Assembly (NCBI GenBank): GCA_001750645.1
Contig: MEIF01000228.1
Location: 7,236 to 71,235 of the forward strand
DNA: 64,000 nucleotides
Direction of reading: 5' to 3'
Origin: Gammaproteobacteria bacterium AqS3
GTDB lineage: Bacteria > Pseudomonadota > Gammaproteobacteria > MEIF01 > AqS3
In this document: positions 768 to 12,546 of the stretch, one piece after another
Numbering within the stretch: the first letter of the stretch is position 1
Layout: every line of letters begins with the position of its first letter
Notes under the pieces: generated by a model
The model's input: the letters and a program-made list of their open reading frames with translations, nothing else
Databases searched by the model: none
What the model was told of the DNA's origin: nothing
Program-made: the position numbers and the translations under genes

Positions 768-994
768 ACGAGGCCCGGGACAGGCGGTTTGGGCATTTTA
801 CCGCACCCCCCAGATGGACCCGATGGCGAAAAACCGGTTTTTGGAGCGGTTTTAGCTCGGTTTTTGCATCCGATGCACCACGCCTGGAGCCGTCCAAACC
901 CTGCGCTCTGCCGCGCTGCCTGCGAATGCCCTCCCAAGCCGCCGGCAACCGGCTTGTGGGCATAATTGCCCGCCGCAGCCAAAGCGAGTTTTTT

Positions 995-2521
995 ATGAAA
1001 GTGCCCCTGTGTTCACTGGATTTTTTGGAGCGCGCCGAGACGGTCTACCCCGATCGCATCGCCGTCGTTGACGAACCCGCCCAGCCCGCCACCCCGCTGA
1101 GTCAATTGACCTACGCCCAGCTGGGGCAGAGGGTGCGCGCACTGTCGGCCGGGCTGGACGCCCTGGACATTGCCCAGGGTGCGCGCATTGCCGTGGTCTC
1201 ACACAACTCGGCGAGGCTGCTCGAGCTGCTCTACAGCGTCCCCGCCTTCGGACGCATCTTTGTGCCGATCAATTTCCGCCTCAAACCCGGAGAGATTGAA
1301 TACATCGTCAATCACTGCGGCGCCGAAATGCTGCTGGTCGACCCCGAACTCGCCGAGGTTGTCTCAGGTCTCAAGGTCAAGCATCGCTTGGTGCTCGGCG
1401 AGGAATCTGACCGGCTGCATCGCTTTGACTCCGAGCCCCGCCCATGGCAGCCCGACGAGGATGCCACCGCCACCATCAACTACACCTCGGGCACCACCGC
1501 CATGCCCAAGGGCGTGCAGATCACGCACCGCAATATCTGGAGCAACGCATCGACATTCGGCTGGCATCTGGGCATCAATGATCGGGACATCTACCTGCAC
1601 ACCCTGCCGATGTTCCACTGCAACGGCTGGGGAATGCCCTTCGCTCTGGCGGGCATGGGCGCCGGTCAGATTGTGCTGCGCCAGGTCGACGGGCCTGAAA
1701 TTCTCAGGCGCATCGAGCGCCACGGCGTGACCGTGCTGTGCGGCGCCCCTGCGGTCGCCAACATCATCCTCGACGCCGCCGAAAGCTGGGACGGACCGAT
1801 CCCCGGCAGCGGGCGGGTGCGCATGGTGGTCGCCGGTGCGGCTCCGCCGACCCGGACGCTGGAGCGCATGGAAACCGTGCTCGGCTGGGAGGTCTGCCAG
1901 ATCTACGGCCTGACCGAGACCTCGCCGCTGCTGACCATCAACCGCCCGCGCGGCGAGTGGGACGACCTCTCCCCCAGCGAGCGCGCCCAGAAACTCAACC
2001 GCGCCGGCGCCCCCGTCATCGGTGCGCGCCTTCGCAGCGACGAGAGCGGCGAGATCTGCGCCCGCAGCAATGTGATCATGCAGGGTTACTGGGAGCAGCC
2101 CGAGGCCACCGCCGAGGCCATCCGCGACGGCTGGTTCCACACCGGCGACGGCGGCGTGGTCGACGATGAGGGCTACGTCCACATCCAGGACCGCAAGAAG
2201 GACGTCATCATCTCCGGCGGGGAGAATGTCTCATCGATTGAAGTCGAGGACGTGCTGTTCACGCATCCGGCGATCAGCGAGGTTGCCGTCATCGGCGTCC
2301 CCGACGAAAAGTGGGGCGAGACCGTCAAGGCACTTGTCGTCAGCGCCGGGGAAGTCAGCGAACGCGAGTTGATCGACTACTGCCGCGAGCGGCTGGCGCA
2401 CTACAAGTGCCCGACCTCGATCGAATTCCGCAGCGAGCTGGCGCGCACCGCCACCGGCAAACTGCAGAAATTCAAGCTGCGCGAGCCCTACTGGAAGGAC
2501 ATGGACCGGCAGGTCAATTAG
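995..2521 (+). CDS. AMP-dependent acyl-CoA synthetase/ligase (adenylate-forming enzyme)
   Basis: The AMP-binding motif YTSGTTAMPKGV is present. Other conserved motifs are YGLTE, GWFHTGD and DRKKDVIISGGENV. The start is placed at the internal Met (MKVPLCSLDFL), because the upstream part of the ORF overlaps the promoter region. Confidence 0.8.
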   Translation: MKVPLCSLDFLERAETVYPDRIAVVDEPAQPATPLSQLTYAQLGQRVRALSAGLDALDIAQGARIAVVSHNSARLLELLYSVPAFGRIFVPINFRLKPGEIEYIVNHCGAEMLLVDPELAEVVSGLKVKHRLVLGEESDRLHRFDSEPRPWQPDEDATATINYTSGTTAMPKGVQITHRNIWSNASTFGWHLGINDRDIYLHTLPMFHCNGWGMPFALAGMGAGQIVLRQVDGPEILRRIERHGVTVLCGAPAVANIILDAAESWDGPIPGSGRVRMVVAGAAPPTRTLERMETVLGWEVCQIYGLTETSPLLTINRPRGEWDDLSPSERAQKLNRAGAPVIGARLRSDESGEICARSNVIMQGYWEQPEATAEAIRDGWFHTGDGGVVDDEGYVHIQDRKKDVIISGGENVSSIEVEDVLFTHPAISEVAVIGVPDEKWGETVKALVVSAGEVSERELIDYCRERLAHYKCPTSIEFRSELARTATGKLQKFKLREPYWKDMDRQVN

Positions 2522-2694
2522 GGGAGCTATATAGACAGATAAATCCTCACGGCATCAGCTTCGGAGATTTTTTGGGAGGGCGCAATGTCCAAGTAGGAAG
2601 GGGGGTTGTGATGTCACCGTCCGCCGGTGGTAATGCCGTTTTTCGGGGCTAAAATTATTGCGGCGTTCGTTTCAGCAATTGCTAGGGAGAGACG

Positions 2695-3243
2695 ATGAAG
2701 GAACAGGATCAGAATTGGCAGGAGCGTGAGCGGCAGTTGGAGAAGCTGCGTAGACGGCTGCATCCGCTTACCGGCAATGCCATATTGAGGGACGTGATTG
2801 CAACACTAGTCTTAATCGGTTCTGTGAGTTGGTTTTACACTTCTGATTTTTATAGCTCTGATCACGGTGATTCACATCGGGGGACATATTTTGTTTTTGT
2901 GACGGCACTTCAAATAATTGGTCTGATTTACTTGATTATGATTTGGATAAATCACTGGCTTAATGGCGCGTCCATCAGGGAAATGGAGAAAAATCTCAGC
3001 GCCGGCGAGCTGCTTGAAATGTTTGAAAAAGAGCGTAAAAAAGTTGGCAATTCAATAATATTTTTAATGATCGGTTTTCTGATTTTCGGAGCGGCGTATC
3101 TGATCGGACTGATTGCCCCCCCTTACGGTTTAGGTCTTATGTTGGCTGGCGTGGGATTTAGCTGTCTTGCAGTTTCATTCTTTTTATATTGGCACTATAA
3201 AAGGTCTGAAAGTATGGCGCGTCAGATACTGCAAGAGCAGTAG
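2695..3243 (+). CDS. Small predicted 4-TM membrane protein, cassette paralog A (hypothetical)
   Basis: The gene is AT-rich in a GC-rich genome. It has a charged N-terminus, four hydrophobic segments and a charged central loop (ELLEMFEKERKK). It is paralogous in architecture and C-terminus (YWHYKRSESMARQILQEQ) to ORF 3533..4066. The two genes share the same RBS context, gagacgATGaa. Confidence 0.6.
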   Translation: MKEQDQNWQERERQLEKLRRRLHPLTGNAILRDVIATLVLIGSVSWFYTSDFYSSDHGDSHRGTYFVFVTALQIIGLIYLIMIWINHWLNGASIREMEKNLSAGELLEMFEKERKKVGNSIIFLMIGFLIFGAAYLIGLIAPPYGLGLMLAGVGFSCLAVSFFLYWHYKRSESMARQILQEQ

Positions 3244-3262
3244 CGCACTATCATCTGACGCC

Positions 3263-3468
3263 GGAGACCCTCACCGCCTAGCATCCCTGACCCTCGCGCC
3301 GGCGATCAGGCCGGACGCGATGCCCCAGACCTTCACCCGATGCCTGCCCCACCATTCGCCCCAGGCGCCCCCCTCCGGCTCCGAGCCTTCCGCATCGTCC
3401 GGCAGCAGGTCGCGACGCAGCCTGTGCCTGACAAACGCGCCGAACGATGCCCCGCCCCAGACTGCCCC
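3263..3468 (-). repeat. Orphan copy of the 3' end (last ~66 codons) of the OMP-like gene at 4082..5023, ~94% nt identical to 4076..4282
   Basis: Direct alignment of 3263-3468 with 4076-4282 shows about 12 mismatches in about 205 bp. The minus-sense translation GGASFGAFVRHRLRRDLLPDDAEGSEPEGGAWGEWWGRHRVKVWGIASGLIAGARVRDARR* differs from the authentic C-terminus at only 4 residues. Confidence 0.7.
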
Positions 3469-3532
3469 CGGCGGCGCGATTTTTTTGGGTTAAAATTGCA
3501 GCGGTCGTTTCGGCGATTTAGGAGGGGAGACG

Positions 3533-4066
3533 ATGAAAATACTGAATCAAGTAACGCAACAGGAAATCAAGCGGCAGACAAAAGATCTGAGCAAGCGGTT
3601 ACATCATCCGATTTTTGGGAGTGAAACGGCAAGCTGTATCGGTCACACAGTTTTGGTAATCGCTCTGCTTGTTGTGCCTTACTTTTTAGACATCCATTAC
3701 AGTGAGGAAATTATCCTAATACTATGCAATATTTTTATGCTGATTTCCTTGGCTGGCATGTGGATAATTCGCCTCTGGCCTACCGATCCTCTCAAAAAAG
3801 AGCAAGAGAAAAAGCCTAGCATCGCAGAGCTTGTTACACTATTTAAGGAGAAGCGCGAGATTTACGCTCGTATAGCAACTTTACTGATAGTCGGGCTTGT
3901 GTGTTGGAGTGTCAGTGTTTTGGTCGGGCTATTTGAGTCTTACTTTCTTGTTGCTTTTGTTACGTTTCAATTTTTTGTAGGCATTGCCATTAGCCAAACT
4001 TTTTATTGGCGTTATCGAAAGTTTGAAAAGATGGCGCGGCTGCTTGCGAAGCAGATCGCTGACTGA
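3533..4066 (+). CDS. Small predicted 4-TM membrane protein, cassette paralog B (hypothetical)
   Basis: The gene is AT-rich. It has the same domain layout as paralog A: a charged N-terminus, two TM segments, the loop ELVTLFKEKREIYA, two further TM segments and the C-terminus YWRYRKFEKMARLLAKQIAD. Its upstream 55 bp is homologous to the region upstream of paralog A. Confidence 0.6.
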   Translation: MKILNQVTQQEIKRQTKDLSKRLHHPIFGSETASCIGHTVLVIALLVVPYFLDIHYSEEIILILCNIFMLISLAGMWIIRLWPTDPLKKEQEKKPSIAELVTLFKEKREIYARIATLLIVGLVCWSVSVLVGLFESYFLVAFVTFQFFVGIAISQTFYWRYRKFEKMARLLAKQIAD

Positions 4067-4081
4067 TGCTCGGGCACCCCC

Positions 4082-5023
4082 TCACCGCCCAGCATCCCTG
4101 ACCCTCGCACCGGCAATCAGGCCGGTCGCGATGCCCCAGACCTTCACCCGATGCCTGCCCCACCATTCGCCCCAGGCACCCCTCTCCGGCTCCGAGCCCT
4201 CCGCATCGTCCGGCAGCAGATCGCGCCGCAGCCTGTGCCGGGCGAACGCCCCGAACGATGCCCCGCCGCCCGCGCCGGCGAATGCCGATCCGCTGAGGTA
4301 GATCGTAGTCCTGTCCCACAGTGACAGCCCCACACCGAGGCCGGCGGTCACAGTCGTCTGGCGGTGGCTGTAATTGTCCTGCCCGTCCAGCGTGTCGCTG
4401 AATTTCACCCGAACGCTCGCCGTGGCGCTGACGCTTACGATATTGTTCACCGCAAAAGAAACCGCAGGGCTGATTGAGAACGAGTCCCCCTCATCCCAAA
4501 CACCGTAGGCTCTGGGTTCCTCCGGCCTGTGGCCATAACCTAAACCGACCCTGAGCACGATCGGGTCGTAAGTCCGATAAACCGAAAGCCCAGCATTGAA
4601 CGCCCCGCTCATCGGCTCGATGTCCAACCCCTCCGCCGCCCTGTTTTCCAGCAGATCGATGCCGATCCAGCCGAACACTCCGGGCGTTTTGTTTTCCGGC
4701 GACAGGTTGCGGCTGATCTCCGCCCTCAGCTCTCCGATCCGCGCGGTGGTGTCCTTTTCGTCCCTCAGCCGGCCGATGCTGAGCCAATCCCTATAAGGGC
4801 TGGCATCGCGGTCGTCCGTGTAGCTCCCGGACAGGCTCAGGCCGATCTCGATGTCCTCGGTCAGCCCGTAGCCGTATCCGAACTCCAGGCCGAAGCGGTC
4901 GGCTCTCTCGCTGCCATACGCGGTGTGCCGGATGCTGTAACTGATCTCTGAGCCGCCCGCCGGTGCGATCAGGTTTTCAATCCTCAGCGGCAGACCGCCG
5001 CAAGCAGTGCGATTGCGCGCATA
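4082..5023 (-). pseudogene. Beta-rich, possible outer-membrane beta-barrel protein gene, 5'-truncated (no start codon or signal peptide in the open frame)
   Basis: The minus-strand frame is open from the stop at 5024-5026 down to the stop at 4082-4084. The track ORF 4082..4678 begins only at an internal GTG. The upstream in-frame sequence (GLEFGYGYGLTEDIEIGLSLSGSYTDD...) shows the alternating hydrophobic pattern of beta strands. There is no Met or signal peptide before the IS remnant. Confidence 0.4.
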
Positions 5024-5300
5024 TCAGGGATATGGGGCTTGTGGATTTTCTGAATGGGTTTCCCGACGAGTATGCTGCGAGGGACGAGACTATCTGGTCG
5101 AGCAGTTCTGGTCGATGGGATGCACTGCCCGTGCTGCGGGAATGCGGATCCGTCACGGATCAGCACAAATGACCGGTCGCCGATGCCGCACCACTGCAGG
5201 GACTGCCGGAGACATTTCAGCGTTGATCAGCGTTCACACGGGTGCGGTGATGGCGGCGAGCGAGAGCAGCCAGCACAGCGGCTTCCGGCGATCCATCTGA
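4990..5300 (+). mobile_element. Remnant of an IS1595-family transposase N-terminal zinc-ribbon region, frameshifted, with no DDE domain
   Basis: Frame 1 gives DFLNGFPDEYAARDETIW...GRWDALPVLRECGS, which matches the consensus ..FPDEeaC..yl..RWPnGfvCPrCGs. Frame 2 continues with HHCRDCRRHFSVDQRS...RLPAIHLIT, which matches YqCkaCkkqfSvTaGT...kWflAIyLIt. The frameshift lies at about 5130-5190. Nothing transposase-like follows. Confidence 0.45.
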
Positions 5301-5332
5301 TCACGACTCATCTCGGGGACAACTTCAGGGCG

Positions 5333-7036
5333 TTAGGAAGAGGGAATGCCCCACAGCTCGATGGCCTTGGCCTTCAGTTTTTTGTGGCGCACCTGAAGGC
5401 GATCTAGATTCCAGTCAGGCAGGTCGCAGAGCTCCTTGGTCATATTGAAGGCGCTCTTCTTATTGGAATATTCGTAGGCTTCTATTTTTTTGTCGAAAGG
5501 GCTGTTTTAGGCAACCCCGTTTTTCCTCCGACTGAGCAGGGTCAAATTGCCCAGCATATTGCGATACTGCTCATGCTGCTCCTCGCTGAACCTCTCAGTC
5601 CAATAGTCTTTTCCCTTAATATTTTGGGGAAGGATGTGCTCAATCGTGATATTTCCCTTGTATTTTCTCTCCACACTTTCATCCTCGTAGGTTTCGTCAA
5701 GCCTTTGCAAAATGGACTTGATGAATTTATTGACCCGAGGACGAGAACCATCATAAAAGTCCTGTTTATCCAGAACATCTTCAAACTTCCATTTCTGATT
5801 ACCTTCAGCAGATAGATTCCTAATAGAGTTCATGACCTTCTCAAAGGTTGCATCCTTCGAGTTAATAGCCTCTACAGCATGGTAACGAGCCGCTTCCCGC
5901 TTGTTTTTATGTTCATCTCTCAAGCTTGCCTGGACATAAGTACGTTCAAACAAATCAACAAACTTTGCAAATAAATCCCAATCTGCAAACTTAATCCGAA
6001 AAGCCATAAATGCTGGGAGCCACTCATCTCTTCCTCCAATTTCGCTCAACAACTCTATGGTTTTAATAACAGGAGGATCATCATTCAAAATTTCGGCGTG
6101 CAGCTCGGCTGATTTGGCAAGAGATGCCGATAGGGAAACTGCAATATTACCTGAATCATTCTGCTTCAACTGATCCGTGTAATAGGGATAAAGCTTTGGC
6201 TTATTGGCTCGATCTCGGTCTTTCATTTCGGAAAATAAATTCAATCTCAAAAAGGAATTAATATTTTCAATTCCAATATTCTCCTCTATAGTTTTCCAAT
6301 TGTTTTCTACTTTTAGAGACTTATCTTCGTTGGAGGCAACTTTCTCCAACAGCACACTTTTAATCAAATCAGCATCGCTTAAAGACTGTCCCCGATTGTT
6401 GAGAACATGAAACATTCGAAAAGATGACTCCCTGTCATCGACCTCAACAAATACAACATACACTTGTCTCAAGAGATACTCCACCAATCTATTCAGAGGC
6501 AGAGTTAAATCTTCCTTAAGAAACTTCTGAATGGCCTCTGAATTATTTCGAAAAACTTTTTCAGTATCCGTATCTTTTTCTGGTTTTTGTTTTATTTCTT
6601 CCCTCAAAACTTGATCAGTGTAAAACCCCCGCTCTTTGTCTCTTACCTCAATAACTGGCCTCGTCAATCTATTAGCAGAAATATGATCCTCATTCAAATA
6701 CATACTTCTCAGCTTAGCTTTTAGTCCTTCATTATTTTTCTTTAATTCTTCATTATTTTCAATGACCCGAACCAATTCTCTTAAAATCAAAGTAAGCGTA
6801 ATGAGGCGCTGCTGTCCATCAACCACTTCAAAACGGTTGCCGTCCCGGATACAGATTAAACCGCCAATAAAGTACTCTCCTTGTTTCTCAGCGCAACTGT
6901 TATGCACGTCTTGCAGAAGCTCCTCCGCCTGATCTTTATCCCAGATATATGGACGCTGATAAGAGGGAATGTAGTACTGCGCACCCCCCAAAAAAGCCAG
7001 CGTTTTTTCCACACTTTGAATCTCAGCCTTCATCAA
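5333..7036 (-). pseudogene. GmrSD-like type IV (modification-dependent) restriction endonuclease with DUF262 N-terminal and DUF1524 C-terminal domains, interrupted by an in-frame TAA at 5507-5509
   Basis: The N-terminus has YQRPYIWDKDQAEELLQD and DGQQRLITLTL (DUF262/ParB-like nuclease domain). The C-terminus has ITIEHILPQN...GNLTLLSRRKNGVA (DUF1524/HNH-like). After the TAA the same frame continues NSPFDKKIEAYEYSNKKSAFNMTKELCDLPDWNLDRLQVRHKKLKAKAIELWGIPSS* to the stop at 5333-5335. The gene is AT-rich. Confidence 0.6.

Positions 7037-12456: not shown

Positions 12457-12546
<90 letters not shown>

What the first reader, a model, noticed from the sequence alone, without database searches (positions are those of the whole stretch)
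2640..4320. Tandem cassette-like array: two diverged small membrane-protein genes, each flanked by a near-identical copy of the 3' end of the adjacent OMP-like gene
Two ~840-bp units lie at about 2640-3478 and 3478-4320. Each carries an AT-rich gene for a roughly 180-aa 4-TM protein. The two proteins share clear architecture, but their coding DNA is almost unalignable. Their flanks are about 94% identical: a 55-bp upstream/RBS segment and a 205-bp antisense copy of the last 66 codons of the OMP-like gene. Within the OMP-tail copy, 8 of about 12 substitutions are synonymous. Conserved flanks around hypervariable cargo are the signature of cassette exchange or gene conversion, as in orphan immunity arrays, silent-cassette loci or site-specific insertion that regenerates the target 3' end. 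No integrase is visible. Small membrane proteins in such arrays are often immunity or phage-exclusion factors.
Basis: seen in the sequence. Interest (0 to 1): 0.75.

Follow-up and report, generated by a model that had tools for sequence, protein, structure and literature searches.

The report
Orphan membrane-gene array beside decayed secretion operon
Two unrelated-looking small membrane-protein genes, each followed by a copy of the last 61 codons of a FapF-like outer-membrane channel gene, form a recombination-built "orphan" array at a decayed secretion operon in a sponge symbiont; it resembles the orphan immunity-gene arrays next to bacterial toxin systems, but no function has been shown.

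Summary
The channel-gene tail copies (3271-3456 and 4082-4267) are 93% identical. The two 4-TM genes between them share only 29% amino-acid identity, and the upstream flank is about 75% identical, not 94%.

The window comes from Gammaproteobacteria bacterium AqS3, a symbiont of the sponge Amphimedon. The "OMP" is a 5'-truncated member of a lineage-restricted family. This family looks like distant FapF-type 12-strand barrels. Intact paralogs sit in operons ordered X (conserved leader, hypervariable C-terminus), periplasmic C39 peptidase (FapD-like), then OMP.

Across at least five other loci, nearly every small membrane gene is followed by a convergent OMP-tail fragment. These genes belong to the mem family or to a second family, sm127. 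Four observations point to homologous or illegitimate recombination anchored in the tail, as in sequential displacement, and not to an integrase:
- The 5' ends of the orphan tails vary between loci.
- One orphan tail is a clear mosaic.
- Array neighbours are not each other's closest relatives.
- A syntenic locus in a related genome carries different cargo.

The window's tail pair differs mostly at synonymous sites (9 of 13 changes). The mem family has only 8 members among 1.84 billion representative proteins. An immunity-like role is plausible but untested. I rate it a new variant of a known kind, of moderate interest.

The parts
2625..2648 (+). Small GC hairpin followed by a T-run, terminator-like. 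It marks the left edge of unit 1 and sits downstream of the acyl-CoA synthetase gene.
   Evidence: The count of such sites is not above the shuffled expectation, so this is weak on its own. The homologous element at 3462-3484 and the T-run upstream of mem genes at other loci make it a conserved part of the unit.
2646..2694 (+). Promoter/RBS segment of unit 1. It holds GGGCTAAAAT (a -10-like TAAAAT at 2650-2655) and the Shine-Dalgarno sequence GGGAGAGACG before the ATG.
   Evidence: The motif GGGYTARAATTRYNG occurs only twice in the window, at 2646 and 3487, against 0.08 expected. The same element lies upstream of mem genes in L001 and L002. It is 73-76% identical to the unit 2 copy. Promoter activity is inferred.
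2695..3243 (+). mem1: a 182-aa 4-TM protein (ISN29_04365) of the lineage-restricted 'mem' family.
   Evidence: ORF. It is identical to P0008. The model shows an N-terminal helix plus four long helices. GC3 is 0.47. Its closest paralogs lie at other loci, at 36-37% identity.
3271..3456 (-). Orphan copy of the OMP tail: the stop codon plus the last 61 codons (GGASFGAFVRHRLRR...WWGRHRVKVWGIASGLIAGARVRDARR*). It has no upstream start codon and no barrel.
   Evidence: It is 93% identical to 4082-4267, with 9 synonymous and 4 non-synonymous differences and no frameshift or stop. No ORF of 50 aa or more covers it.
3462..3484 (+). Hairpin followed by a T-run, terminator-like. It sits at the junction between orphan tail 1 and unit 2.
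   Evidence: It is homologous to 2625-2648 and to the sequence upstream of L001 memC.
3487..3532 (+). Promoter/RBS segment of unit 2. It holds GGGTTAAAAT (TAAAAT at 3491-3496) and the Shine-Dalgarno sequence GGGGAGACG.
3533..4066 (+). mem2: a 177-aa 4-TM protein of the same family as mem1.
   Evidence: ORF. It is P0011. It shares 29% identity with mem1. Its closest relative is a partial copy on another contig (L006 9322-9666, 52%).
4082..4267 (-). Resident tail (stop codon plus 61 codons) of the OMP-like gene. It is the partner of the orphan copy.
4268..4996 (-). Remnant of the barrel of the FapF-like OMP gene. It is 5'-truncated at about residue 28, so the signal peptide, the C39 gene and the X gene are all missing. 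It is annotated only from an internal GTG as the 198-aa protein ISN29_04355.
5054..5407 (+). Remnant ORF with an IS1595-type transposase zinc ribbon, at the break in the OMP gene.
   Evidence: Pfam PF12760, E=0.0016, below the curated cutoff. This is a weak assignment.
5507..7036 (-). Low-GC GmrSD-type (DUF262/DUF1524; PADLOC Orf5/HEC-06) defence gene. It occupies the place where the X-C39-5'OMP part of the operon would be.
   Evidence: GC3 is 0.42.

Best explanation
The array is a recombination-built string of orphan modules at the 3' end of a decayed secretion operon that is specific to this bacterial lineage.

The intact system. In AqS3, intact operons read X, then C39 peptidase, then OMP.
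- X has a Sec signal and a conserved leader of about 64 aa ending in an invariant Gly, followed by a hypervariable, low-GC C-terminal region that starts with a hydrophobic segment.
- The C39 peptidase is periplasmic and FapD-like.
- The OMP is a 12-strand FapF-like barrel with a conserved C-terminal tail: a basic RHRLRR stretch, an acidic linker and a WWGRHRVRVWGIAxGLIAGAxVRDxRR helix.

The cargo. Downstream of the OMP lie self-contained, low-GC expression units, usually convergent with it. Each has a hairpin plus T-run, a -10-like element, an RBS and a small membrane-protein gene.

How arrays form. The OMP tail is the longest GC-rich stretch conserved between paralogous loci, so it serves as the homology anchor. 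A new [tail + small gene] segment enters by one of two routes:
- homologous recombination in the OMP or tail, with an illegitimate join at the other end (homology-facilitated illegitimate recombination, 'sequential displacement');
- a single crossover with an excised tail-plus-gene circle.
Either route pushes the older tail and gene outward. Neighbouring tails can then be homogenised by gene conversion, whose tracts stop where homology stops.

This window. I infer that tail2 + mem2 is the newer module and tail1 + mem1 the displaced one. Later, an insertion of an IS remnant and a GmrSD gene destroyed the X-C39-5'OMP part. That left two intact, independently promoted mem genes.

Likely function (inferred, about 0.35). 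The mem proteins are inner-membrane immunity-like or partner proteins matched to the polymorphic X cargo, which looks membrane-active. Specificity would lie in the hypervariable TM1, TM2 and TM4 helices, as with the 4-TM immunity proteins of pore-forming colicins.

What is shown and what is inferred. Shown: the anatomy, the recurrence across the genome, the recombination mosaic, the variable truncation points and the lineage restriction. Inferred: the direction of displacement, the promoters, the secretion role and immunity. The overall confidence of 0.55 combines about 0.7 for the recombination-built array with about 0.35 for the immunity-like function.
For: 1. The tail is a native, conserved part of all OMP paralogs with a complete 3' end except P0007. 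The window's OMP lacks its 5' end.
2. The pattern [small membrane gene, then a convergent OMP-tail fragment] recurs. L001 has 3 units, L002 has 2, L006 has at least 4 and L004 has 1. In L003 the units run in the same direction as the OMP.
3. Orphan tails start at different points. These are GGASFG in the window, 8 codons earlier in L001-C, inside the last barrel strand in L001-A, tail residues of about 20 and 38 in L006 and L002, and a 214-aa OMP fragment in L006. This points to illegitimate joins, not a fixed recombination site.
4. The L002 orphan tail is a mosaic. Its centre matches the local OMP tail. Its last 20 nt or so, and the cargo beyond, match the sm127-associated tails of L004 and L006.
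5. mem1 and mem2 are not sister genes. They share 29% identity, while mem2 is 52% identical to a copy on another contig. Synonymous divergence between mem1 and mem2 is saturated (dS 1.35), but dS between the two tails is only 0.21.
6. The tail pair differs at 9 synonymous and 4 non-synonymous sites (dN/dS 0.14; binomial p=0.0015 against neutrality). The orphan keeps family-consensus residues. This fits divergence that occurred while both tails were parts of working genes.
7. The syntenic pair L003 and L004 has flanks 82% identical but entirely different cargo. One has two co-directional mem genes plus an orphan tail. The other has one convergent sm127 gene.
8. No integrase lies near any locus.
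9. X, mem and sm127 all have low GC3 (0.33-0.64), while the C39 and OMP genes have host-like GC3 of 0.72-0.78.
10. The X proteins share the leader and then diverge completely.
12. In the mem family the cytoplasmic segments are 39-49% identical, but TM1, TM2 and TM4 only 18-27%. Pairwise dN/dS is 0.3-0.76.
13. A published precedent exists for displacement arrays that retain 3' ends of the upstream gene: PMC5361080.
Against: - No toxin domain is recognisable in X, and no immunity family matches mem.
- The gene next to the mem genes is the channel, not the putative effector X. Cargo and 'immunity' would therefore lie about 2 kb apart at opposite ends of the operon, which is unusual for toxin-immunity pairs.
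- There are too few loci to test whether X type and mem type co-vary.
- Suppose only the resident tail were constrained and the orphan drifted. The expected synonymous fraction would then be about 0.42, by my own calculation from the site counts. Nine of 13 is only marginally above that, so in-situ duplication with gene conversion is not excluded for this particular pair.
- Local duplication clearly happens elsewhere (L001 memA, B and C at 53-60%; L003 at 67%).
- The OMP model has low confidence (pLDDT 54) and the FapF sequence hit is marginal (E=0.06).
- All comparative data come from one MAG plus one ENA contig.
Confidence: 0.55

Rival explanations
1. In-situ tandem duplication of a [mem + tail] unit. 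The two mem copies then diverged very fast, under diversifying or relaxed selection. The two tails, 811 bp apart, stayed alike through repeated local gene conversion. No DNA was imported.
For: - Local tandem duplication does occur in this family: L003 mem170/171 at 67% and L001 memA/B/C at 53-60%, with shared junction sequences in L001.
- mem proteins evolve fast, with dN/dS up to 0.76.
- The high-identity block ends exactly where homology would limit a conversion tract.
- Orphan tails are generally closest to the main tail of their own locus.
Against: - mem1 and mem2 are among the most distant pairs in the family (29%), and mem2 is closer to a copy on another contig (52%).
- Synonymous sites between mem1 and mem2 are saturated, while the tail dS is 0.21.
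- Arrays elsewhere mix two unrelated families, mem and sm127, which duplication cannot produce.
- The tails show an excess of synonymous differences.
Confidence: 0.2
2. Site-specific cassette integration, integron-like or by an integrative element. Each insertion into the 3' end of the OMP gene regenerates that end, and the tail copy acts as the att site.
For: Direct repeats of a gene's 3' end flanking cargo are the classic footprint of integrative elements. The array is ordered like an integron cassette array.
Against: - No integrase or recombinase gene is found within 6-8 kb at any of the eight regions.
- Orphan tails have variable 5' ends and internal deletions.
- No inverted-repeat, attC-like structures flank the units.
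- Each unit carries its own promoter-like element.
- One relative has the cargo in the opposite orientation.
- The repeat is 186 nt of coding sequence, not a short core site.
Confidence: 0.05
3. The tail fragment is kept because it is functional for the small gene. Its antisense strand forms the 3' UTR of the mem mRNA. It could stabilise or terminate that mRNA, or act as an antisense regulator of OMP mRNAs in cis and, for orphan copies, in trans.
For: - The stop codons of mem and OMP lie only 15-27 nt apart and converge, with no terminator between them.
- The first terminator-like site after mem1 lies just beyond the orphan tail, at 3462-3484.
- Even heavily deleted orphans (L001-A and L001-B) keep the 12-15 tail codons next to the mem stop codon.
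Against: - Retention of the nearest bases is expected anyway, because any deletion that spares the mem gene will tend to spare them.
- The number of terminator-like sites is not above the shuffled expectation.
- In L003 the tails are in the sense orientation relative to the mem genes.
- One mem gene (L007) has no tail at all.
- No expression data were available.
Confidence: 0.1
4. An assembly artefact in a metagenome-assembled genome, such as a chimeric join or a mis-resolved repeat.
For: The source is a MAG contig, and repeats are error-prone in short-read assemblies.
Against: - The repeat is short (189 nt), 7% diverged and separated by unique sequence.
- The same architecture appears on five other AqS3 contigs and in an independent ENA assembly.
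Confidence: 0.02

Closest known systems
Orphan immunity-gene arrays built by sequential displacement in polymorphic toxin loci (V. cholerae T6SS effector-immunity clusters, Kirchberger et al. 2017, PMC5361080; Rhs/CDI orphan modules from my own knowledge)
   Same: - Strings of small, highly diverged genes lie at the 3' side of a secretion or effector gene.
- Displaced 3' fragments of the upstream gene are retained.
- Array members are not each other's closest relatives.
- Composition is atypical, no integrase is present, and recombination is anchored in a conserved segment (paper read).
   Different: - The retained fragment is the conserved tail of an outer-membrane channel, not the variable toxin domain.
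- The small genes are mostly convergent and carry their own promoter-like element.
- The candidate effector (X) lies at the other end of the operon.
- Neither a toxin nor an immunity activity has been shown.
- All the gene families involved are new.
Tandem T7SS immunity paralogs shaped by homologous recombination through conserved sequence blocks (esaG, tipC, and the membrane protein tsaI; Garrett et al. 2022, PMC9484751)
   Same: Non-identical tandem paralogs, including membrane immunity proteins against a membrane-depolarising toxin. Conserved blocks act as recombination substrates that expand and contract the arrays (abstract read).
   Different: In those systems the homology blocks lie inside the immunity genes. 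Here the main block is a fragment of a neighbouring gene on the opposite strand. The organisms are Gram-positive and use a different secretion system.
Immunity genes of pore-forming colicins (for example cai and cbi; from my own knowledge)
   Same: Inner-membrane proteins of about 175 aa with 4 TM helices. The genes lie immediately downstream of the toxin operon gene, on the opposite strand, with their own promoter. Specificity is read within the membrane.
   Different: No sequence or profile similarity was found: no colicin-immunity family appears among the Pfam hits. The adjacent gene here is a beta-barrel, not a colicin. The locus is chromosomal and multi-copy.
Fap functional-amyloid export system, FapD (periplasmic C39 peptidase) plus FapF (12-strand trimeric OM channel) (Rouse et al. 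2017, PMC5557850)
   Same: - A C39 gene with a signal peptide lies immediately upstream of a 12-strand barrel gene, and the substrates are Sec-dependent.
- The C39 protein's best NCBIfam hit is FapD.
   Different: - Scores are far below the equivalog cutoffs (68 bits against 330).
- The OMP has no N-terminal coiled coil or plug helix. It has a conserved C-terminal basic and hydrophobic tail instead.
- No FapA, B, C or E genes are present. The cargo is polymorphic.
- In the window itself, only the 3' two-thirds of the channel gene survives.
Integron cassette arrays
   Same: An ordered array of small, promoter-proximal, compositionally foreign genes separated by a repeated element.
   Different: There is no IntI and no attC hairpins. 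The repeat is a coding fragment with variable ends, and the cassettes carry their own promoter-like element.

Membership tests
Orphan effector-immunity arrays (sequential displacement type) | Tandem small genes downstream of a secretion or effector gene, highly diverged from one another | tested here: met
   mem1 and mem2 share 29% identity. L002 and L006 mix the mem and sm127 families.
Orphan effector-immunity arrays (sequential displacement type) | Displaced 3' fragments of the upstream gene are retained with the orphan genes, with irregular truncation points | tested here: met
   Orphan tails are present in the window, L001, L002, L003 and L006, with variable 5' ends.
Orphan effector-immunity arrays (sequential displacement type) | Array members relate more closely to genes elsewhere than to their neighbours, and recombinant junctions exist | tested here: met
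   mem2 is closest to L006 9322-9666 (52%). A mosaic tail is seen in L002. Cargo differs between the syntenic loci L003 and L004.
Orphan effector-immunity arrays (sequential displacement type) | A recognisable toxin whose variable domain pairs with the adjacent immunity gene | tested here: not met
   The adjacent gene end is the conserved OMP tail. X is polymorphic, but no toxin family matches it.
Orphan effector-immunity arrays (sequential displacement type) | The small protein neutralises a cognate toxin | not testable with these tools
   This needs co-expression or competition assays.
Integron / site-specific cassette system | A tyrosine-recombinase integrase next to the array | tested here: not met
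   None is found in the window's first 8 kb or in the gene tables of L001-L007.
Integron / site-specific cassette system | An imperfect inverted-repeat recombination site (attC or att core) at a fixed position at each cassette boundary | tested here: not met
   No flanking inverted repeats. The tail boundaries vary.
Fap-type (FapD/FapF) secretion system | A periplasmic C39 peptidase encoded next to the channel gene | tested here: met
   This holds for the paralogous loci: signal peptides are visible and the proteins hit PF03412 and NF058616 FapD at 67-68 bits, below the 330-bit cutoff. No C39 gene is present in the window itself.
Fap-type (FapD/FapF) secretion system | A 12-strand FapF-like barrel | tested here: inconclusive
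Fap-type (FapD/FapF) secretion system | An N-terminal periplasmic coiled coil and plug helix in the channel, plus FapA/B/C/E amyloid genes | tested here: not met
   In the OMP the barrel begins about 20 residues after the signal-peptide helix, and the protein has a C-terminal tail instead. The operon has only X, C39 and OMP.
Pore-forming colicin immunity proteins | Membership by sequence or profile in a colicin immunity family | tested here: not met
   No such Pfam or NCBIfam hit. Only sub-threshold hits to unrelated membrane families appear.
Pore-forming colicin immunity proteins | A 4-TM inner-membrane protein of about 175 aa, encoded convergently downstream with its own promoter | tested here: met
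   Architecture. Convergent orientation and a conserved -10-like element. Promoter activity is not tested.
Silent-cassette antigenic variation (pilE/pilS type) | Partial silent copies carry variant versions of the variable part of an expressed gene | tested here: not met
   The copied segment is the conserved tail (93% identical, dN/dS 0.14). The expressed gene is itself truncated.

The most novel reading that the evidence does not exclude
AqS3 and its relative carry a previously undescribed polymorphic secretion-plus-immunity system. A FapD/FapF-like two-step exporter releases leader-bearing, hypervariable, membrane-active X proteins. The convergent low-GC 4-TM genes (mem and sm127) are the matching immunity determinants. 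These genes accumulate as orphan arrays by recombination anchored in the channel gene's conserved 3' tail. In this window the immunity genes would have outlived the loss of the exporter. That would be a new toxin-delivery route using Fap-type machinery, and a new way of building immunity arrays, in a vertically inherited animal symbiont.
Probability: 0.25. Interest if true: 0.75.

Novelty: new variant of a known kind. Interest (0 to 1): 0.55.

Why it matters
If this reading holds, it extends the 'orphan module, sequential displacement' way of building gene arrays to a new setting. That mode is known from T6SS, Rhs, CDI and T7SS toxin loci. Here the setting is a Fap-like outer-membrane export operon in a vertically inherited sponge symbiont, and the conserved 3' tail of the channel gene is the recombination anchor.

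It also flags three uncharacterised protein families that vary together around a conserved C39-OMP core. They are the X cargo with a shared leader, the mem 4-TM proteins and the sm127 proteins. The mem and OMP families are lineage-restricted. This is a testable candidate for strain-level competition or host-interaction factors in a three-member sponge microbiome.

For annotation, the 198-aa 'hypothetical protein' ISN29_04355 is a gene remnant, and the intergenic stretch 3271-3456 is a displaced gene end.

Tried and rejected
- Family searches. Pfam, NCBIfam, PADLOC and PHROGs scans of mem1, mem2, sm127 and the OMP gave only sub-threshold or no hits.
- Exhaustive profile search. The mem family found only 8 proteins among 1.84 billion representatives, all from AqS3 or one ENA sample. 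No functional lead can come from distant relatives.
- Syntenic comparison of this exact locus failed:
  - The flanking acyl-CoA synthetase has no ortholog above 72% identity.
  - The OMP profile found nothing in GTDB genome contigs or JGI metagenome contigs.
  - mem1 and P0005 are not on record for context look-up.
- Foldseek of the mem1 model against the PDB returned only generic or designed helical bundles.
- Rejected readings:
  - An integron or integrase mechanism: no integrase, variable boundaries, no inverted repeats.
  - A pilS-like silent cassette: the copied part is conserved.
  - A MITE or transposon unit: no terminal inverted repeats.
  - An assembly artefact: the same architecture appears on independent contigs and in an independent assembly.
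- Translation of the orphan tail is unlikely. No in-frame ATG, GTG or TTG gives an ORF of 50 aa or more. The only possible start is an internal GTG that would yield a peptide of about 21 aa (read from the sequence), with nothing to support it.
- A hairpin in the tail (CCGGC...GCCGG over the GLIAG codons) is not conserved in other tails, so I dropped it as a terminator candidate.
- Rfam found nothing in the region.

Full report
**1. Checking the observation**

The sequence at 2600-4330 contains two head-to-tail units. Each unit has four parts:
- a short conserved upstream element (2646-2694 and 3487-3532);
- an intact AT-rich ORF, mem1 at 2695-3243 (182 aa) or mem2 at 3533-4066 (177 aa);
- a non-conserved spacer of 15-27 nt;
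- on the opposite strand, a copy of the end of the OMP-like ORF.

The repeat finder gives 3268-3456 against 4079-4267 at 93% identity. BLASTN of the region against the whole window gives E=7.6e-79 and finds no third copy.

A windowed identity profile of the two units:

| Segment | Identity |
|---|---|
| Promoter/RBS | 75% |
| Coding region | 28-65% |
| Spacer between stop codons | 48% |
| Tail | 92-98% |

The tail block has sharp edges, one exactly at the OMP stop codon and the other at the GGASFG codons.

The copy covers 61 codons plus the stop, not 66. Nine of 13 substitutions are synonymous, not 8 of 12. The upstream flank is about 75% identical, not 94%.

**2. What the genes are**

*Source organism.* The OMP-like product matches 'hypothetical protein ISN29_04355' of Gammaproteobacteria bacterium AqS3. 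AqS3 is one of the three dominant symbionts of the sponge Amphimedon queenslandica.

*The OMP family.* It has only seven members among 5.8 billion clustered proteins: AqS3 paralogs plus one ENA contig. All paralogs with a complete 3' end except P0007 carry the same C-terminal tail after the last barrel strand (GGASFGAF). The tail is VRHRLRR, an acidic linker, then WWGRHRVRVWGIAxGLIAGAxVRDxRR. So the tail is native to the gene and not a fusion artefact.

*The window's copy is truncated.* It lacks the first 27 residues or so, including the signal peptide. Upstream of the break lie a weak IS1595 zinc-ribbon remnant (5054-5407) and a low-GC GmrSD-type defence gene (5507-7036).

*The intact operon.* Intact paralogs sit in operons ordered X, C39 peptidase, OMP.
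- The C39 proteins have signal peptides. Their best NCBIfam matches are FapD and FilB, well below the equivalog cutoffs.
- An AlphaFold model of a full-length paralog is of low confidence (pLDDT 54). It shows a barrel of 12-13 strands followed by a C-terminal helix.
- A sequence-profile search of the PDB returns FapF and nothing else, at a marginal E=0.06.
- FapD and FapF form a Sec-dependent, two-step outer-membrane export system (PMC5557850).

I conclude that this is a distant FapD/FapF-like exporter, not a Fap system. It has no coiled coil or plug helix and no Fap amyloid genes.

*The X proteins.* They share a Sec signal and a leader of about 64 residues ending in an invariant Gly. Beyond that they diverge completely, starting with a hydrophobic stretch.

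*The mem proteins.* An exhaustive HMM search of 1.84 billion representative proteins finds eight members, all from this lineage. The model shows an N-terminal helix and four long helices (pLDDT 70). Fold search finds only generic helical bundles. Across the family, the hydrophilic N-terminal, linker and C-terminal segments are 39-49% identical. TM1, TM2 and TM4 are only 18-27% identical. Pairwise dN/dS is 0.3-0.76.

*Composition.*

| Genes | GC3 |
|---|---|
| mem | 0.45-0.59 |
| sm127 | 0.53-0.56 |
| X | 0.33-0.64 |
| C39 and OMP | 0.72-0.78 |
| Housekeeping neighbours | 0.85-0.90 |

**3. The pattern recurs across the genome**

I mapped tail, barrel, mem, sm127, C39 and X by tblastn over the window and seven fetched loci. 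Nearly every small membrane gene is followed by a convergent OMP-tail fragment:
- L001 has three units.
- L002 has one mem unit and one sm127 unit.
- L006 has at least four units, one of which keeps a 214-aa OMP fragment.
- L004 has one sm127 unit.
- In the ENA relative (L003) the order runs in one direction: OMP-tail, mem170, tail', mem171.
- The single exception is L007, whose truncated mem gene has no tail nearby.

The 5' ends of the orphan tails differ from locus to locus, and two orphans carry internal deletions.

The L002 orphan tail is a mosaic. Its centre carries the signature of the L002 main tail. From about 20 nt before the stop codon onward, through the cargo, it matches the sm127-associated tails of L004 and L006.

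L003 and L004 are syntenic. Their flanks are colinear over 6 kb at 82% identity, yet the cargo between the OMP barrel and the conserved flank is entirely different.

Array neighbours are sometimes sister genes (L001 at 53-60%, L003 at 67%). In the window they are not. mem1 and mem2 share 29%, while mem2 is 52% identical to a copy in L006.

No integrase lies near any of these loci.

**4. How it most likely works**

The conserved GC-rich tail is the homology anchor through which [tail + small gene] segments are added, exchanged and homogenised.

The variable truncation points, the mosaic tail and the mixed-family arrays match the 'sequential displacement' model. That model, based on homology-facilitated illegitimate recombination, was proposed for V. 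cholerae T6SS immunity arrays (PMC5361080). Related recombination through conserved blocks is described for T7SS immunity genes (PMC9484751).

For the window's tail pair, dS is 0.21 and dN is 0.03 (p=0.0015 against neutrality). The orphan keeps consensus residues where the resident tail has changed. By contrast, dS between mem1 and mem2 is saturated. The two tails therefore share a much more recent ancestor than their cargos. Most of their divergence looks as if it occurred under coding constraint.

This fits import of a diverged allele, or a crossover with one. It fits in-place decay of a duplicate less well. The test is only marginal, however, if just one of the two copies was constrained. 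By my own calculation from the site counts, the expected synonymous fraction would then be about 0.42. Local duplication followed by gene conversion therefore remains a live rival, at about 0.2.

Each unit looks like a self-contained expression module. It has a hairpin plus T-run. It also has a -10-like TAAAAT inside a motif found only at these two places in the window, against 0.08 expected. A strong Shine-Dalgarno sequence completes it.

**5. Function**

The conserved C39-OMP core is flanked by two low-GC, hypervariable ends, X on one side and the small membrane genes on the other.

The mem genes are about 175 aa with 4 TM helices. They are convergent, carry their own promoter-like element and are most variable within the membrane. 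In this window they remain intact even though the exporter has been destroyed.

This is what orphan immunity genes look like. It also parallels the immunity genes of pore-forming colicins (from my own knowledge). But no toxin or immunity family is detectable, and the effector candidate is not adjacent to the mem genes. Co-variation of X type with mem type cannot be tested with five loci. I give the immunity-like role about 0.35.

Other possibilities are an inner-membrane partner of the exporter or its tail, or an antisense or 3'-UTR role for the tail.

**6. Verdict**

The cassette-exchange and gene-conversion reading is supported in its recombinational form. The site-specific reading is not supported.

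It is a new variant of a known kind of locus, built from lineage-restricted families. Interest is moderate (0.55), and higher if the toxin-immunity reading is confirmed.

Noticed in passing
window 5054-7036: A low-GC GmrSD-type defence gene lies at 5507-7036 on the minus strand (PF03235 + PF07510; PADLOC Orf5/HEC-06; GC3 0.42). Beside it is a weak IS1595 zinc-ribbon remnant ORF at 5054-5407. Together they occupy the place where the X-C39-5'OMP part of the operon should be. The secretion operon was probably destroyed by insertion of foreign DNA.
   Followed up: partly
window 926-2521: The acyl-CoA synthetase gene next to the array has no close gammaproteobacterial ortholog. Its best relatives, at about 70-72% identity, are mostly from Acidimicrobiales MAGs. 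This suggests horizontal acquisition, although its GC3 is host-like (0.85).
   Followed up: no
L001 6288-7349; L002 6455-7276; L003 4166-4939; L001 1345-1773; L005 6651-7100: The first gene of each operon (X) encodes a protein with a near-identical Sec signal and a leader of about 64 aa (…LVNDDLAFAFHGD…EMxExEG). Beyond the leader lies a completely different C-terminal region that starts with a hydrophobic segment. This is a polymorphic secreted protein family with a possible C39 cleavage site after the invariant Gly.
   Followed up: partly
L002 9807-10187; L004 841-1203; L006 976-1305 and 7444-7791: A second, unrelated family of small membrane proteins (sm127; 90-134 aa as called; most copies end …SQASEITSSN) occupies the same position as the mem genes. 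Each copy is convergent with an OMP tail, which its 3' end slightly overlaps. The family matches nothing in Pfam, NCBIfam, PADLOC or PHROGs.
   Followed up: partly
L002 5770-5936: A remnant of about 40 codons from the N-terminus of a mem gene, with the conserved GGGCTAAAATTG promoter-like motif, lies upstream of and divergent from the X gene. In L001, memC sits in the same position relative to X_L1. mem genes may therefore also flank the 5' side of the operons.
   Followed up: no
L006 4862-6498: A gene pair of Peptidase_M78 (ImmA/IrrE-like) and DUF4411 sits inside the L006 stretch that holds several mem and sm127 units, with an AAA ATPase and a VWA gene nearby. These arrays appear to lie in regions rich in defence or accessory genes.
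   Followed up: no
L005 8001-8723: One OMP paralog (P0007) lacks the conserved C-terminal tail. It ends …PSQLPKN and has no small membrane gene downstream; a topoisomerase IV gene follows instead. This fits the idea that the tail is what recruits the cargo.
   Followed up: no
window 12457-12546: A single tRNA-Ser(GGA) gene is the only Rfam or ARAGORN hit in the 64-kb window.
   Followed up: no
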